Source of the DNA: a virus
Lineage: Duplodnaviria > Caudoviricetes
Strand: one strand, 5' to 3'
Virus record (IMG/VR): IMGVR_UViG_3300037721_000031
Coordinates: 96,001-160,000 of that record
Length of the DNA: 64,000 nucleotides
Both the position numbers and the translations under genes were made by a program. The stretch's first letter is position 1; each line of letters starts with the position of its first letter. Under the pieces are notes generated by a model that was not told the DNA's origin, did no database searches, and saw only the letters and a program-made list of their open reading frames with translations. Positions 11,039 through 64,000 of this stretch are shown here, one piece after another.

Positions 11039-11431
11039 ATGAGATCCTTAATACACAAACTCCTATCTGCACTTTTATCAAAGCTCCTGCCAGATAGAAC
11101 AAAGCGATTGGTCATGCTATCATCACTGTACGCATTAGTGTATGGTATCACTTCATTTGATAGTAAAATGGTCAATAAACTGAATCAAATCATGAATTTA
11201 AGTAGCGCTGATAAAGCATTGGAATTTCCAATGCAGTTATCGTCCGTGATTTGGCGTGGGGTGGATGGTAAGACAATAACTTATCCTAATGTTAATACAT
11301 ATGGAATAGATGAGATTATACTGAAGATAATGGATAAAATTCCACAATGTTTAGTTTACTCTGATAGACAAAGTATTCTCACAGACATCTCTAAACTTTT
11401 TACAGAAAGAAGTAATCTAATTCCTAACTAA
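11039..11431 (+). CDS. Hypothetical protein
   Basis: 130-aa ORF followed by a hairpin. Confidence 0.5.
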   Translation: MRSLIHKLLSALLSKLLPDRTKRLVMLSSLYALVYGITSFDSKMVNKLNQIMNLSSADKALEFPMQLSSVIWRGVDGKTITYPNVNTYGIDEIILKIMDKIPQCLVYSDRQSILTDISKLFTERSNLIPN

Positions 11432-62289: not shown

Positions 62290-62877
62290 TCAGGTACGTA
62301 GTGCTTTTTTCTTCATTTCAACCAGTAGTTTCTGACTAGCAAATTCTGAAGCATCACATTCAGTCCTAAGCATTAGAAGAATGTTCTCTGTATTACTAGA
62401 CAACTTCATTTTAGCTAATTGCATCATGTGGCTGTGTTTTACTTTTTCATTCTCTCTGAAAATAAACTGAACAAAGGTACCACGATCTGAGTTATCAAAG
62501 AAATGATGCGGAACAGAAATACTATCGACTATTTCAGACAAAGTGCAAGACAAGAGCTTGACAGCAGTCTTATTACTGCGAGACTGCAATGGATTACTTA
62601 CTTTGCTAGAAACTATTTTAATTTCTGAGTTAAATCCATAGTCGATGTTTCTTACTAGATTTGACAATGTATTCATAAATTGGAAGTTATATGTGTTCTT
62701 ATCCAACTTCAAACCATTGCGACACTTTAACCAATCTTTAGCACCCATCAATACTAGCTGAATCCATAGAGCATTGGCTGGATTCATGTACCAGTTATCA
62801 TCATTCCAAGCAATAGCCCCCTGTGTAATTACATACCTAGAACCATCTTGAGCCGGAAGTAGTTTTGAAATGATCAA
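62290..62877 (-). CDS. Hypothetical protein
   Basis: 195 aa, TTG start with GAGGA RBS. Confidence 0.55.
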   Translation of the reverse strand: MIISKLLPAQDGSRYVITQGAIAWNDDNWYMNPANALWIQLVLMGAKDWLKCRNGLKLDKNTYNFQFMNTLSNLVRNIDYGFNSEIKIVSSKVSNPLQSRSNKTAVKLLSCTLSEIVDSISVPHHFFDNSDRGTFVQFIFRENEKVKHSHMMQLAKMKLSSNTENILLMLRTECDASEFASQKLLVEMKKKALRT

Positions 62878-62947
62878 TTTATCCTCACTATGAGTCTGGT
62901 TACAATCACACTATTGCCATTTATAACATAAAAAAATTTTAACAGAA

Positions 62948-62976
62948 AAGAGGATGGGAGTTAATCCCATCCTCTT
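62948..62976. terminator. Hairpin bordering the structured non-coding region
   Basis: 12-bp stem AAGAGGATGGGA/TCCCATCCTCTT. Confidence 0.6.
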
Positions 62977-62999
62977 CCTGCCTACTACCTGTTTTTTGT

Positions 63000-63860
63000 A
63001 TCCACACTTTCTTGGCTGTGTGGATTTAATTTTGAGTGCTCAAGACTCACCTTCGAAGGGACAGGATATTAATCTTCAGTACTACCTTCATCGCAAGAAA
63101 GAAGTGCGCACTTCCTCTCACTAGTACTTGCATCGGGTCCTTAAATGGCGTTACCCCGAATGGTTATTTAATGGCCACTACTTTTCAATTAATTTAAGCG
63201 ATCCTGTCTACGGCTTCCAGCGACATCCGGGCATGTAAAGCTACTGGAATTTCATGTGCCACAACCGCAGACACTTAAGAGCCGCGTATCTCTTAAGTTG
63301 GATCACAGGTGGAGTCTCGATCTGGTTTATCATGTAACATCGGTAAGGCTCCCACATCACCAACATTAATACCTCAATGCCATTTGGTGTTAAAACTGAT
63401 CGTTAGCTCTCTGTTGGATTATTATCCGAGAGAGGTTCCTAGAGTTCTGTAAAATGCATCGAGTCAGGTAAAGACTCCACCTGTGATCCAATATCTATAA
63501 CAAGACGGTTCCGTGTACAATGTGTAGTCTAACTAATAAATAAAACCTACACTATCATACACTACTAGTTTTAGGTATCAGTTTCCTTCCGAATCCACCG
63601 TAAGTTTGGAAGGTTTTATTCGTTGTTTCAAGCACTTTACTCTACACCCACTCTACTCGACGATTTCCAAATTACATGGAAATGGTTAGGCCCTTTCGCG
63701 AGAGTCCGGTAAAATATAAAACTTGAAAAACGAAATTGAATGTTGTCTGAAGCTGCCTCGACAGTGAGACCCAAGAGCGTACGTTTACGCGTGTCCCTAG
63801 ACGGTGGAGATACTATCTCACTTTAACCGACTCTTATGCATATCTTCAGACAACAACCTT
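63000..63860 (+). ncRNA. Candidate large structured non-coding RNA
   Basis: No ORF of 60 aa or more; many nested stems, including 20-bp and 12-bp perfect long-range pairings; several stems close only with G-U pairs on the + strand. Confidence 0.5.
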
Positions 63861-63863
63861 TAC

Positions 63864-63998
63864 TCACCCGATTAAATAGATGAGTGAATCAATAGTAGCT
63901 GCATTATGAACACAATCGTAGAAAGAGTTCCGGCGAAAATGTTCAAACGTGTATGTAGCGTCATCGACAATGATCTTCTTAAACTTGTGTAGAGACTC
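63864..63998 (-). CDS. 3' end of a gene entering from the right edge (hypothetical)
   Basis: Open frame ...ESLHKFKKIIVDDATYTFEHFRRNSFYDCVHNAATIDSLIYLIG* ending at TGA 63864-63866. Confidence 0.35.
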   Translation of the reverse strand, partial: ESLHKFKKIIVDDATYTFEHFRRNSFYDCVHNAATIDSLIYLIG

Positions 63999-64000
63999 TC

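What the first reader, a model, noticed from the sequence alone, without database searches (positions are those of the whole stretch)
63000..63860. Candidate ~860-nt highly structured ncRNA, apparently on the strand opposite its neighbours
Seen: an ORF-free stretch in a gene-dense genome with nested stems: 63060-63067/63201-63208; 63101-63114 palindrome; 63141-63149/63163-63171 (two G-U); 63273-63281/63290-63298; 63298-63317/63472-63491 (20 bp); 63407-63434; 63585-63593/63605-63613 (G-U); 63741-63752/63844-63855 (12 bp) enclosing AGTGAGA/TCTCACT and GCGTA/TACGC. The wobble pairs work as G-U on the + strand. Established: phages encode large ornate ncRNAs of unknown function (GOLLD and ROOL classes). 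Inference: a large ncRNA, possibly of a new class.
Basis: partly seen in the sequence, partly recalled or inferred. Interest (0 to 1): 0.72.

Follow-up and report, generated by a model that had tools for sequence, protein, structure and literature searches.

The report
Array of new phage structured RNAs
The gene-free kilobase in this uncultivated 267-kb jumbo phage is a string of at least five separately folding, evolutionarily conserved RNA structures on the same strand as the neighbouring tRNA genes; they match no known RNA family, and one of them recurs in distantly related jumbo phages.

Summary
In four to five related phage lineages, 105 cleanly aligned base pairs are 100% canonical. Of these, 36 show compensatory double changes, against 0-4 in slid controls.

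The strand call was wrong. Wobble pairs, alignment folding energies and a position-conserved terminator all point to the minus strand, the strand of the flanking genes and the tRNA cluster.

The stretch is not demonstrably one 860-nt RNA. It is a chain of modules (A, B1, B2/B3, D1, D2, C) that are gained, lost, swapped or moved between relatives, with a tRNA or a called ORF between them in some.
- **Module C** (about 180 nt) has two pseudoknots and a loop-loop kiss.
- **Module B2/B3** (about 120 nt, pseudoknotted) also occurs alone in three distant jumbo phages whose capsid proteins are 42-53% identical to ours.

Nothing matches Rfam, including GOLLD and ROOL. No expression data could be obtained, and function is unknown. 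My best reading is a tail of stable small RNAs on the tRNA operon, as with T4 species 1 and 2 RNAs.

Earlier notes of this scan had already described other large RNAs of the same RNA island on adjacent DNA of this genome.

The parts
63741..63855 (-). Module A, about 115 nt. It is closed by a 12-bp stem (63844-63855 with 63741-63752). Inside are stem GTCGGT/ACCGTC with a kept U.U mismatch (63826-63831/63800-63805), hairpin GAGAT/ATCTC (63815-63819/63807-63811), hairpin GCGTA/TACGC (63786-63790/63777-63781), and an invariant unpaired ATGCAT. It starts 9 nt after the stop codon of the 165-aa ORF.
   Evidence: Present in all five lineages (own, L022, L015/L017, L020, L024). There are 3 compensatory pairs in the closing stem and by-eye covariation in the two inner stems. 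MFE z is -3.28. Model R3 finds it only in this genome and the near relatives.
63645..63711 (-). Module B1, about 67 nt: a three-way junction with hairpin ATTTCCA/TGGAAAT. The evidence for it is weak.
   Evidence: Only three near-identical copies exist (own, L022, L015), with one compensatory pair (TACC/GGTG to TATC/GATA). L017 carries a different sequence with a GNRA hairpin in its place. MFE z is -0.73.
63503..63625 (-). Module B2/B3, about 120 nt, a pseudoknotted RNA. It has a 5' hairpin CCTTCC/GGAAGG (63608-63613/63585-63590). Loop CGGT of that hairpin (63597-63600) pairs with the 3' tail ACCG (63506-63509). A long hairpin follows (63547-63562 with 63513-63527) with conserved tandem U.G/G.U pairs.
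   Evidence: Model R2 finds it in all near relatives, at a different place in L024, and in three distant jumbo phages (G001 73.9 bits, G023 72.2 bits, G003 54.2 bits). On 9 sequences, 97.9% of cells are paired and 11 of 21 pairs show double-sided change, against 0-4 in slid controls; 0 of 500 shuffles reach the covariation score. The pseudoknot is 4/4 canonical in all 9 sequences, in three covarying states.
63299..63490 (-). Module D1: a long, perfectly Watson-Crick hairpin (19 bp, 63472-63490 with 63299-63317). In this genome alone its loop carries a 154-nt extra folded domain (63318-63471). It is a candidate double-strand-specific (RNase III-type) processing site.
   Evidence: The same hairpin has a 10-12-nt loop and a different stem sequence in L022/L023 (16 bp) and L020 (17 bp), and it is absent in L015/L017. 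There are six or more compensatory pairs. The insert folds with z -2.77 and has no copy elsewhere in the genome or in the loci. A 152-nt contig 94% alike lies in run X9.
63206..63297 (-). Module D2, about 92 nt. It has hairpin CTTAAGAG/CTCTTAAG (63290-63297/63274-63281), then stem GTCTGCGG/CCGTAGAC (63265-63272/63206-63213) enclosing stem TTCCAG/CTGGAA (63244-63249/63215-63220).
   Evidence: Present in own, L022/L023 and L020; absent in L015/L017 and L024. Four pairs show double-sided change, and four G.U/U.G pairs are invariant in all sequences.
63001..63178 (-). Module C, about 180 nt, the most ornate part.
- P1 63174-63178/63145-63149 and P2 63155-63159/63133-63137 form an H-type pseudoknot.
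- P3 63122-63127/63079-63084, P4 63117-63121/63093-63097 and P5 63110-63114/63101-63105 form a stacked arm.
- P6 63085-63090/63054-63059 is a second pseudoknot.
- The loop of hairpin P7 (63045-63048/63034-63037) kisses the loop of hairpin P9 (63018-63024/63001-63007) through P8 63041-63044/63011-63014.
   Evidence: Six sequences in four lineages were used. All 42 pairs are canonical in all sequences and 16 show double-sided change; 0 of 500 shuffles reach this. There are 19 G.U cells that would be C.A on the + strand. Under strand-neutral helix selection there are 11 G.U types against 1 A.C. Model R1 finds one copy per genome and only in near relatives. Nested MFE z is only -1.09.
62930..62977 (-). 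Intrinsic terminator of the minus-strand transcript: a 13-bp G+C-rich hairpin (62965-62977 with 62947-62959) followed by a U-rich tail.
   Evidence: Read directly from the sequence. Every relative has a hairpin of unrelated sequence followed by a T run at the same place after the last module. The simple consensus scan did not list it.
63712..63740 (-). A/U-rich linker between A and B1. A similar one lies at 63179-63205, between D2 and C.
   Evidence: At this linker the relatives carry insertions: a called 112-aa ORF, a tRNA remnant and another module in L015, and tRNA-Ser(UGA) plus another module in L020.
63864..64000 (-). 3' end of the upstream 165-aa ORF (phrog_2586, function unknown). It runs beyond the window, and the tRNA cluster lies further upstream on the same strand.

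Best explanation
The stretch is the 3' tail of the phage's minus-strand tRNA/RNA operon, and it encodes a chain of independently folding structured RNAs.

Shown:
- Each module (A, B2/B3, D1, D2, C) has its own covariation-supported fold, including three pseudoknots and a kissing loop.
- The folds work on the minus strand.
- The chain ends at a hairpin plus U-tract terminator that is kept in place in every relative.
- Modules are inserted, deleted, replaced and relocated as units between related phages.
- B2/B3 is an autonomous family found alone in distant jumbo phages.

Inferred:
- The region is transcribed together with the upstream tRNAs and the 165-aa ORF.
- The transcript is cut into stable RNAs of about 70-190 nt. 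Cuts would fall in the A/U-rich linkers, in the long perfect D1 duplex (RNase III type), and at the tRNA ends (RNase P/Z) where a tRNA lies between modules.
- These RNAs act in trans, most likely by binding a host or phage protein or RNA through their conserved unpaired nucleotides. This would parallel the stable species 1 and 2 RNAs at the end of the T4 tRNA cluster, whose function is also unknown.
For: Structure
- 105 unambiguously aligned pairs give 521 cells, all canonical. 36 pairs show double-sided change against 0-4 when the 3' partner is slid.
- Per-pair tables from the tools.

Strand
- 28 G.U cells become C.A on the + strand.
- The same helix search finds about twice as many conserved helices on the minus strand as on the plus strand in all five modules.
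- Strand-neutral selection in module C gives 11 G.U types against 1 A.C.
- Alignment folding energies are lower on the minus strand in all modules.
- Invariant wobble pairs occur in B3 and D2.

Operon context
- Seven tRNA genes, an HNH gene and the 165-aa ORF lie upstream on the same strand.
- The terminator is kept in position with unrelated stem sequences.

Modularity
- Block pattern of matches.
- D1+D2 are absent in L015; C is absent in L024; B1 is replaced in L017.
- tRNA-Ser follows directly after A in L020.
- B2/B3 sits at another locus in L024.
- B2/B3 occurs alone in G001, G003 and G023 beside unrelated genes.
- No inter-module helix survives all lineages.

Analogue
- T4 carries rnaD and rnaC right after its tRNA cluster, on the same strand, with a homing endonuclease gene inside the cluster.
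Against: - No expression, 5'/3' end or processing data of any kind could be obtained.
- A, C and D rest on only four to five related lineages, so the covariation counts are not phylogenetically independent.
- Some stems needed by-eye realignment.
- Nested MFE of B and C is no better than shuffles (z -0.15 and -1.09).
- The order A-B-D-C is the same in four lineages.
- A possible D2-C helix exists (63201-63208 with 63060-63067).
- GOLLD shows that a single giant RNA can have variable domains and even tRNAs in a linker (PMC12286853). One long RNA is therefore not excluded.
- The trans-acting binding role is pure inference.
Confidence: 0.55

Rival explanations
1. The stretch is one multi-domain RNA of about 0.9 kb, a new GOLLD/ROOL-like class of giant ornate phage RNA. 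It would have conserved end domains (A at the 5' end, C at the 3' end) and a variable middle, and might self-assemble through kissing loops.
For: - The setting is the same as for GOLLD and ROOL: phage, next to a tRNA island.
- GOLLD has a conserved 3' region, a less conserved 5' region and sometimes tRNAs in its linker (PMC12286853).
- The order A-B-D-C is kept in four lineages.
- There is one terminator, only after C.
- A possible D2-C helix is kept in the three lineages that have D2.
- The covarying loop-loop pair P8 and the invariant self-complementary ATGCAT in A could be intermolecular contacts.
Against: - No covariation-supported pairing links any two modules.
- L024 has A without C and keeps B2/B3 2.5 kb away, behind three ORFs and two tRNAs.
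- L015 lacks D1/D2.
- B2/B3 stands alone in three distant phages.
- In L020 a tRNA lies directly 3' of A, and its maturation would cut A off.
- The Rfam models of GOLLD and ROOL give no match, even at E up to 10.
Confidence: 0.25
2. The structures act in cis. They would be either a protective structured 3' UTR of the 165-aa ORF message, or a leader (riboswitch-like) that controls read-through of the terminator into the 195-aa ORF.
For: Module A starts 9 nt after the stop codon of the 165-aa ORF. Module C is followed within about 25 nt by a terminator and then by the 195-aa ORF, in four lineages.
Against: - In L020, A follows an HNH gene instead of the 165-aa ORF.
- The terminator stems are unrelated in sequence between lineages, and no conserved alternative pairing with C is visible.
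- L024 keeps the terminator and the ORF without C.
- B2/B3 sits next to unrelated genes in G023.
- Five elaborate folds with pseudoknots are far more than transcript protection needs.
Confidence: 0.08
3. It is a structured RNA on the plus strand, opposite to its neighbours.
For: In this genome two stems carry wobble pairs that work only on the plus strand (63141-63149/63163-63171 and the seventh pair of 63585-63593/63605-63613). The plus-strand fold has z -8.65.
Against: - The first of those stems is not kept in any relative.
- 28 wobble cells in conserved helices break on the plus strand and none break on the minus strand.
- Invariant tandem G.U pairs in B3 and D2 would be C.A on the plus strand.
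- There is no plus-strand terminator after the region in this genome.
- All neighbouring genes and tRNAs are on the minus strand.
Confidence: 0.04
4. It is a DNA-level element (replication origin, packaging site, or protein-binding inverted repeats), or else a small protein gene on the plus strand.
For: - The long stems are perfect palindromes that would also form in DNA.
- Both strands fold well.
- Plus-strand frames of 54-78 codons stay open over module C in four lineages, and a gene caller called one in L015.
Against: - Strand-asymmetric wobble pairs, pseudoknots and loop-loop covariation have no meaning for duplex DNA.
- There is no turn of the cumulative GC skew here.
- Substitutions in the plus-strand frames show no third-position excess (for example 14/9/10 and 5/8/10), and there are indel columns (5-7 per lineage) inside them. 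The start and the C-terminal part are not conserved.
Confidence: 0.04

Closest known systems
Bacteriophage T4 stable RNAs species 1 and 2 (rnaC 139 nt, rnaD 119 nt)
   Same: Both are small structured RNAs of unknown function. Both are encoded directly after a phage tRNA cluster, on the same strand, in a cluster that also holds a homing endonuclease gene (T4 record; this phage). This is the closest match for how I think the element works: co-transcribed with the tRNAs, then processed.
   Different: There is no sequence likeness. T4 rnaC has a tRNA-like T arm and paired ends, which the modules here lack. Here there are five or more modules with pseudoknots, spanning about 0.9 kb, and a protein ORF lies between the tRNAs and the RNAs. 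Processing is shown for T4 (textbook knowledge, not tested here) but not for this phage.
GOLLD RNA (Rfam RF01998)
   Same: It is a large ornate RNA of phages and prophages, often near tRNA islands. It has a conserved 3' part and a variable 5' part, sometimes has tRNAs in a linker, and uses kissing loops in its architecture. Its function is unknown (PMC12286853).
   Different: There is no match to the Rfam model at any threshold tried. The modules here are shown to occur separately. No evidence exists for one molecule or for a multimer.
ROOL RNA (Rfam RF03087)
   Same: It is phage- or prophage-encoded, often near tRNA islands, with multiple pseudoknots and no known protein partner or function (PMC12286853).
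   Different: There is no match to the Rfam model. The secondary structure is different, and the organisation here is modular rather than one about 580-nt fold (length from my own knowledge of the family, not checked here).
Other large RNAs of the same island in this genome
   Same: They lie on the same strand, in the same tRNA island, and were likewise reported as structured RNAs absent from Rfam.
   Different: They are different sequences. Models R1-R3 find no second copy of A, B2/B3 or C anywhere in the genome. I did not re-test those neighbouring elements.

Membership tests
GOLLD (RF01998) | Match to the family covariance model | tested here: not met
   Rfam 15 cmscan of the window at gathering score gave 0 hits. 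For 62700-64000, both strands, at E up to 10, no GOLLD hit appeared. The relatives L020 and L015 also gave none.
GOLLD (RF01998) | Encoded by phages or prophages, often beside tRNA genes | tested here: met
   The source is a 266.6-kb virus record. Seven tRNA genes lie within 6 kb upstream on the same strand, and tRNAs flank the element in all relatives.
GOLLD (RF01998) | One long RNA with a conserved 3' region and a variable 5' region | tested here: inconclusive
   C (3' end) is kept in 4 of 5 lineages, A (5' end) in 5 of 5, and the middle is variable. But the modules also occur apart, and no inter-module pairing is supported.
GOLLD / ROOL | RNA-only multimeric nanocage | not testable with these tools
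   This needs native gels or cryo-EM of the transcript.
ROOL (RF03087) | Match to the family covariance model | tested here: not met
   No hit.
T4-type tRNA-cluster stable RNAs (rnaC, rnaD) | Placed at the 3' end of a phage tRNA cluster on the same strand | tested here: met
   T4 annotation, compared and the strand evidence.
T4-type tRNA-cluster stable RNAs (rnaC, rnaD) | Sequence or fold likeness to rnaC or rnaD | tested here: not met
   blastn gave only chance matches with E above 2. R1 does not hit the T4 locus.
T4-type tRNA-cluster stable RNAs (rnaC, rnaD) | Cut out of the tRNA precursor transcript and stable in the cell | not testable with these tools
   No RNA run holds the stretch.
Intrinsic (rho-independent) terminator | G+C-rich hairpin directly followed by a U tract on the transcribed strand | tested here: met
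   A 13-bp hairpin at 62947-62977 is followed on the minus strand by a T-rich tail. An equivalent hairpin plus T run, with a different sequence, is present in all relatives. Caveat: the simple consensus scan did not list it.
Riboswitch or other cis-regulatory leader | Aptamer coupled to an expression platform by conserved alternative pairing, upstream of a conserved gene family | tested here: not met
   The terminator stems are unrelated between lineages and have no conserved complement in C. B2/B3 lies next to unrelated genes. No riboswitch family was hit.
Group I/II introns and small self-cleaving ribozymes | Match to the Rfam models | tested here: not met
   There are no such hits at E up to 10 in the region or at E up to 1 in L020 and L015.

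The most novel reading that the evidence does not exclude
The modules, with the other large RNAs of this island, could be a shuffled toolkit of autonomous RNA cassettes that jumbo phages exchange within their tRNA/tmRNA islands. Each cassette would be a trans-acting RNA, for example a decoy for a host RNA-targeting defence or translation factor, or a new ribozyme. B2/B3 would be the first member recognised across phage clades. Alternatively, A-to-C is one new giant self-assembling RNA.
Probability: 0.25. Interest if true: 0.85.

Novelty: new variant of a known kind. Interest (0 to 1): 0.62.

Why it matters
Large or ornate structured RNAs without a known function are rare, and phage tRNA islands are where GOLLD, ROOL and the T4 stable RNAs sit. 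This locus adds several new covariation-supported folds.
- Module C is a 180-nt RNA with two pseudoknots and a kissing loop.
- Module B2/B3 is a 120-nt pseudoknotted RNA with an invariant tandem-wobble motif, shared by jumbo phages whose capsid proteins are only 42-53% identical.

The locus also shows that such RNAs behave as exchangeable cassettes, interleaved with tRNAs, a tmRNA and homing endonuclease genes. That gives concrete, small targets for probing, structure determination and partner pull-downs. It also bears on what phages use their RNA islands for beyond codon supply.

Tried and rejected
- **Rfam.** Window at gathering score. Region at E up to 10. Relatives L020 and L015. Loci of the distant B2/B3 copies. 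Only tRNA and a permuted tmRNA in other phages were recognised.
- **Cultured phages.** blastn of the region and of distant B2/B3 copies against 50,697 phage records gave no match. The closest cultured relative by capsid protein, Burkholderia phage FLC9 (53%), has no B2/B3.
- **More homologues.**
  - Single-protein scans of viral contigs with either flanking ORF found nothing.
  - Exact DNA pattern scans of viral, metagenome and genome contigs found nothing.
  - Alignment-based scans with the 195-aa family found nothing.
  - The third protein search, with the 493-aa ORF, added no usable contig.
  - The contig of P0005, the closest relative at 83% identity, could not be fetched.
- **blastn in relatives.** The region against five related jumbo phage records gave only chance matches.
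- **Paralogues.** None in this genome by blastn or by models R1-R3.
- **Expression.** No RNA holder listed. Run X9, labelled RNA-Seq, is probably DNA and holds only a 152-nt contig like the own-only insert.
- **Inter-module pairing.** The best candidate, A 63797-63801 with the B3 loop, breaks in L015 and L024 (and reading).
- **RNAalifold outer helices for module C**. Rejected in favour of the local pseudoknotted helices, which carry the double-sided changes.
- **Plus-strand ORFs.** Rejected.
- **Called ORFs in relatives.** The 112-aa and 70-aa ORFs between modules have no PHROG family and no copy in this genome, so their reality is open.
- **Flanking ORFs.** Pfam gave nothing significant.
Full report
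**Where it lies**

The window is bases 96,001-160,000 of a 266,566-bp virus record, 98% complete by CheckV. Its capsid protein is of the phiKZ type (phrog_3231; PF25620 on the relative L015). The closest cultured relatives are Burkholderia phage FLC9 (53% capsid identity) and Ralstonia phages RP12/RP31 (43%).

The finding lies between two minus-strand ORFs. The 195-aa ORF runs 62290-62877. The 165-aa ORF has its stop at 63864 and belongs to phrog_2586, function unknown. Upstream on the same strand are tRNA-Ser, Asn, Arg, Arg, Leu, Thr and Ser, plus an HNH endonuclease gene. Earlier notes of this scan describe further large RNAs in that island beyond the window end. I did not re-test them.

**The observation**

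No ORF longer than 56 aa lies in the 986-nt gap. The 881-nt stretch folds to -247.0 kcal/mol on the plus strand (z -8.65) and -272.8 kcal/mol on the minus strand (z -8.29).

Taken one by one, the modules are much less exceptional. Their z-scores are A -3.28, the own-only insert -2.77, D2 -1.80, C -1.09, B1 -0.73 and B2/B3 -0.15. The global score is carried by the 12-bp and 19-bp stems.

Rfam gives nothing at gathering score for the window. It gives nothing credible at E up to 10 for the region.

**Relatives**

DNA searches and single-protein locus scans failed. Protein searches with the two flanking ORFs succeeded. They found homologues 59-83% identical on metagenome contigs, and I fetched the DNA.

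There are five lineages: own, L022/L023, L015-L018 (with L017 as a variant), L020/L021 and L024. All are oriented so that they correspond to the minus strand of the window.

blastn shows a block pattern rather than one colinear match, and an E-INS-i alignment shows why. The stretch is a chain of modules:
- **A** (63741-63855) is in all lineages.
- **B1** (63645-63711) is in three lineages and is replaced by another sequence in L017.
- **B2/B3** (63503-63625) is in all lineages, but in L024 it lies 2.5 kb away at L024:486-605.
- **D1** (63299-63490) and **D2** (63206-63297) are in own, L022/L023 and L020 only.
- **C** (63001-63178) is in all lineages but L024.

Between the modules the relatives carry other things. 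L020 has tRNA-Ser(UGA) directly after A, followed by a further roughly 150-nt module, and a called 70-aa ORF between D2 and C. L015 has a called 112-aa ORF and a tRNA remnant after A.

In this genome alone, the loop of D1 holds a 154-nt folded insert. It has no copy elsewhere in the genome or in the loci. A 152-nt contig 94% alike occurs in one wastewater run.

**Covariation**

I restricted the count to helices whose alignment needs no shifting. That leaves 105 pairs and 521 cells, all canonical. Of these pairs, 36 show a change on both sides, against 0-4 when the 3' partner is slid by one to three columns (33-45% of cells paired). In modules B2/B3, D and C, no column shuffle out of 500 reaches the observed values.

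These helices were selected for being canonical, so the controls overstate the contrast somewhat. But the double-sided changes cannot be produced by selection alone. Tool tables give the same picture for C and D2.

Some further stems are supported by eye after realigning one-base shifts: A GTCGGT/ACCGTC with a kept U.U, A GAGAT/ATCTC, the B2 stem, and D2 CTTAAGAG/CTCTTAAG.

AGTGAGA/TCTCACT competes with the conserved local hairpin. 63141-63149/63163-63171 is 9/9 only in this genome and 5/9 or fewer in relatives, and its 3' strand instead forms the covarying stem P1.

**Architecture of module C**

The following helices are each canonical in all six sequences, with 16 double-sided covarying pairs:
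- P1 (GTGGC/GCCAT) and P2 (TCGGG/CCCGA) interlock as an H-type pseudoknot.
- P3-P4-P5 form a stacked arm.
- The conserved internal loop TGAAGG of that arm pairs with CCTTCG downstream. This is P6, a second pseudoknot, and it covaries G-C to A-U in L022/L023.
- The loop of hairpin P7 pairs with the loop of hairpin P9. This is P8, which is CTTG/CAAG in two lineages and CCTG/CAGG in two others.

RNAalifold prefers long-range nested helices instead. Those are mostly invariant G.U pairs and are broken by the L020 changes that P2 compensates, so I reject them.

**Module B2/B3 is a family of its own**

A covariance model of it (R2) finds the six near copies and three more in jumbo phages found through their capsid proteins:
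- G001: 73.9 bits, capsid 53% identical.
- G003: 54.2 bits, capsid 45% identical.
- G023: 72.2 bits, capsid 42% identical.

Thirty-three other records of that capsid clade have none, including ten complete ones.

On the nine sequences, 97.9% of cells are paired and 11 of 21 pairs change on both sides, against 0-4 in slid controls. No shuffle out of 500 reaches the covariation score. One caveat applies: this alignment was fitted to the model.

The loop-to-tail pseudoknot is not in the model, so it is an independent test. It is 4/4 canonical in all nine sequences. It has three states: CGGT/ACCG; CGAT/ATCG in L020 and G023; and TGGT/ACCA in L024 and G001. A fifth pair is A-U, U-A or G-C in three sequences.

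In G023 the flanking ORFs are unrelated to ours, and a permuted tmRNA lies 850 nt downstream (RF04321, 73.3 bits). In G003 a tRNA-Ile lies 1 kb upstream. So B2/B3 is an autonomous RNA gene that keeps company with other RNA genes.

Models of C (R1) and A (R3) hit only this genome and the near relatives.

**Strand**

- In the curated helices, 28 cells are G.U on the minus strand and would be C.A on the plus strand. None goes the other way.
- That count is biased by selection, so I also ran the same helix search on both strands. It finds 39/27/30/77/66 conserved pairs on the minus strand against 18/10/13/26/35 on the plus strand, for A/B1/B23/D/C.
- A strand-neutral selection allowed both G.U and A.C and required a Watson-Crick to Watson-Crick change. 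In module C it gives 11 G.U types against 1 A.C. In the other modules this test is weak and is contaminated by spurious helices.
- Alignment folding energies favour the minus strand in all five modules.
- B3 has an invariant U.G/G.U/A-U/U.G block, and D2 has four invariant wobble pairs.
- After the last module, every lineage has a hairpin of unrelated sequence followed by a T run on this strand. In this genome the plus-strand reading of that hairpin has no adjacent T run.

The element is therefore on the same strand as its neighbours.

**Coding and DNA rivals**

Plus-strand frames stay open over module C in four lineages, and a gene caller called one in L015. But substitutions are spread evenly over the codon positions, indel columns (5-7 per lineage) lie inside the frames, and neither the start nor the C-terminal part is conserved.

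Cumulative GC skew does not turn here. Pseudoknots, kissing loops and strand-specific wobbles have no meaning for duplex DNA.

**What it most likely is**

The shown facts are these: independent folds, the minus strand, a terminator at the end, cassette-like gain and loss, a tRNA between modules in one relative, and one module that is autonomous elsewhere.

They fit best a tail of several small stable RNAs on the tRNA operon. The closest known layout is T4, where rnaD and rnaC follow the last tRNA on the same strand and segB sits inside the cluster. There is no sequence likeness to those RNAs.

Co-transcription, cutting in the A/U-rich linkers, cutting in the perfect D1 duplex, cutting by tRNA-processing enzymes, and a trans-acting binding function are all inferences.

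The main rival is a single giant RNA of GOLLD/ROOL type. The published description of GOLLD has a conserved 3' part, a variable 5' part, tRNAs in the linker and kissing loops (PMC12286853). That is close enough that I keep this rival at 0.25, although the Rfam models do not match and no inter-module pairing is supported.

No expression data could be had.

**Verdict**

This is real, new structured RNA. The strand is wrong, and "one 860-nt RNA" is better replaced by an array of RNA cassettes. Function is unknown.

Noticed in passing
L074:2436-2774 (+), record G023: A distant jumbo phage of the same capsid clade (capsid 42% identical) encodes a permuted tmRNA. Rfam RF04321 scores 73.3 bits against a gathering score of 47, and ARAGORN predicts the tag ANDSQFAQRLAA. 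It lies 850 nt downstream of that phage's copy of the B2/B3 RNA.
   Followed up: partly
L020:4874-4963 and L015:about 11100-11180: Directly after module A, L020 has an intact tRNA-Ser(UGA) with an encoded CCA end. At the same place L015 has only a minihelix ending in TCCA, which looks like a decayed tRNA. Both are followed by a further roughly 150-nt module with paired ends and an ACCA or GTCA tail. That module is absent from this position in the window's genome.
   Followed up: partly
window 63318-63471 (-): A 154-nt folded domain (z -2.77) is inserted in the loop of the D1 hairpin in this genome only. A 152-nt contig 94% alike occurs in a wastewater run (X9), so this domain exists elsewhere too, in an unknown context.
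   Followed up: partly
L001:2465-2962 (-), running over the window end at 63864-64000: The 165-aa ORF upstream of module A has a P-loop-like motif. It reads GG.R.SGKT in the two relatives but SEKT in this genome, followed by a hhhhDD motif. There are weak AAA-domain hints only (E about 0.04 on P0002). It may be a small NTPase whose Walker A glycine is lost here.
   Followed up: partly
window 62920-62946 (-) and the same place in L015, L020, L022, L024: The T run of the terminator is followed in all lineages by TATG, TATA or TATT (for example TTTTTTTATG). This could be a phage promoter for the 195-aa ORF abutting the terminator. I did not test it for enrichment in the genome.
   Followed up: no
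L031:1248-2530, record G001: The B2/B3 copy of G001 lies in a 1.3-kb stretch with no minus-strand ORF of 60 aa or more. This may be another array of unannotated structured RNAs.
   Followed up: no
L001:3183-3845 (-), genome 160,582-161,244: An HNH homing-endonuclease ORF of 220 aa sits between tRNA-Asn and the two tRNA-Arg(UCU) genes. Its reading frame overlaps tRNA-like sequence at its 5' end.
   Followed up: no
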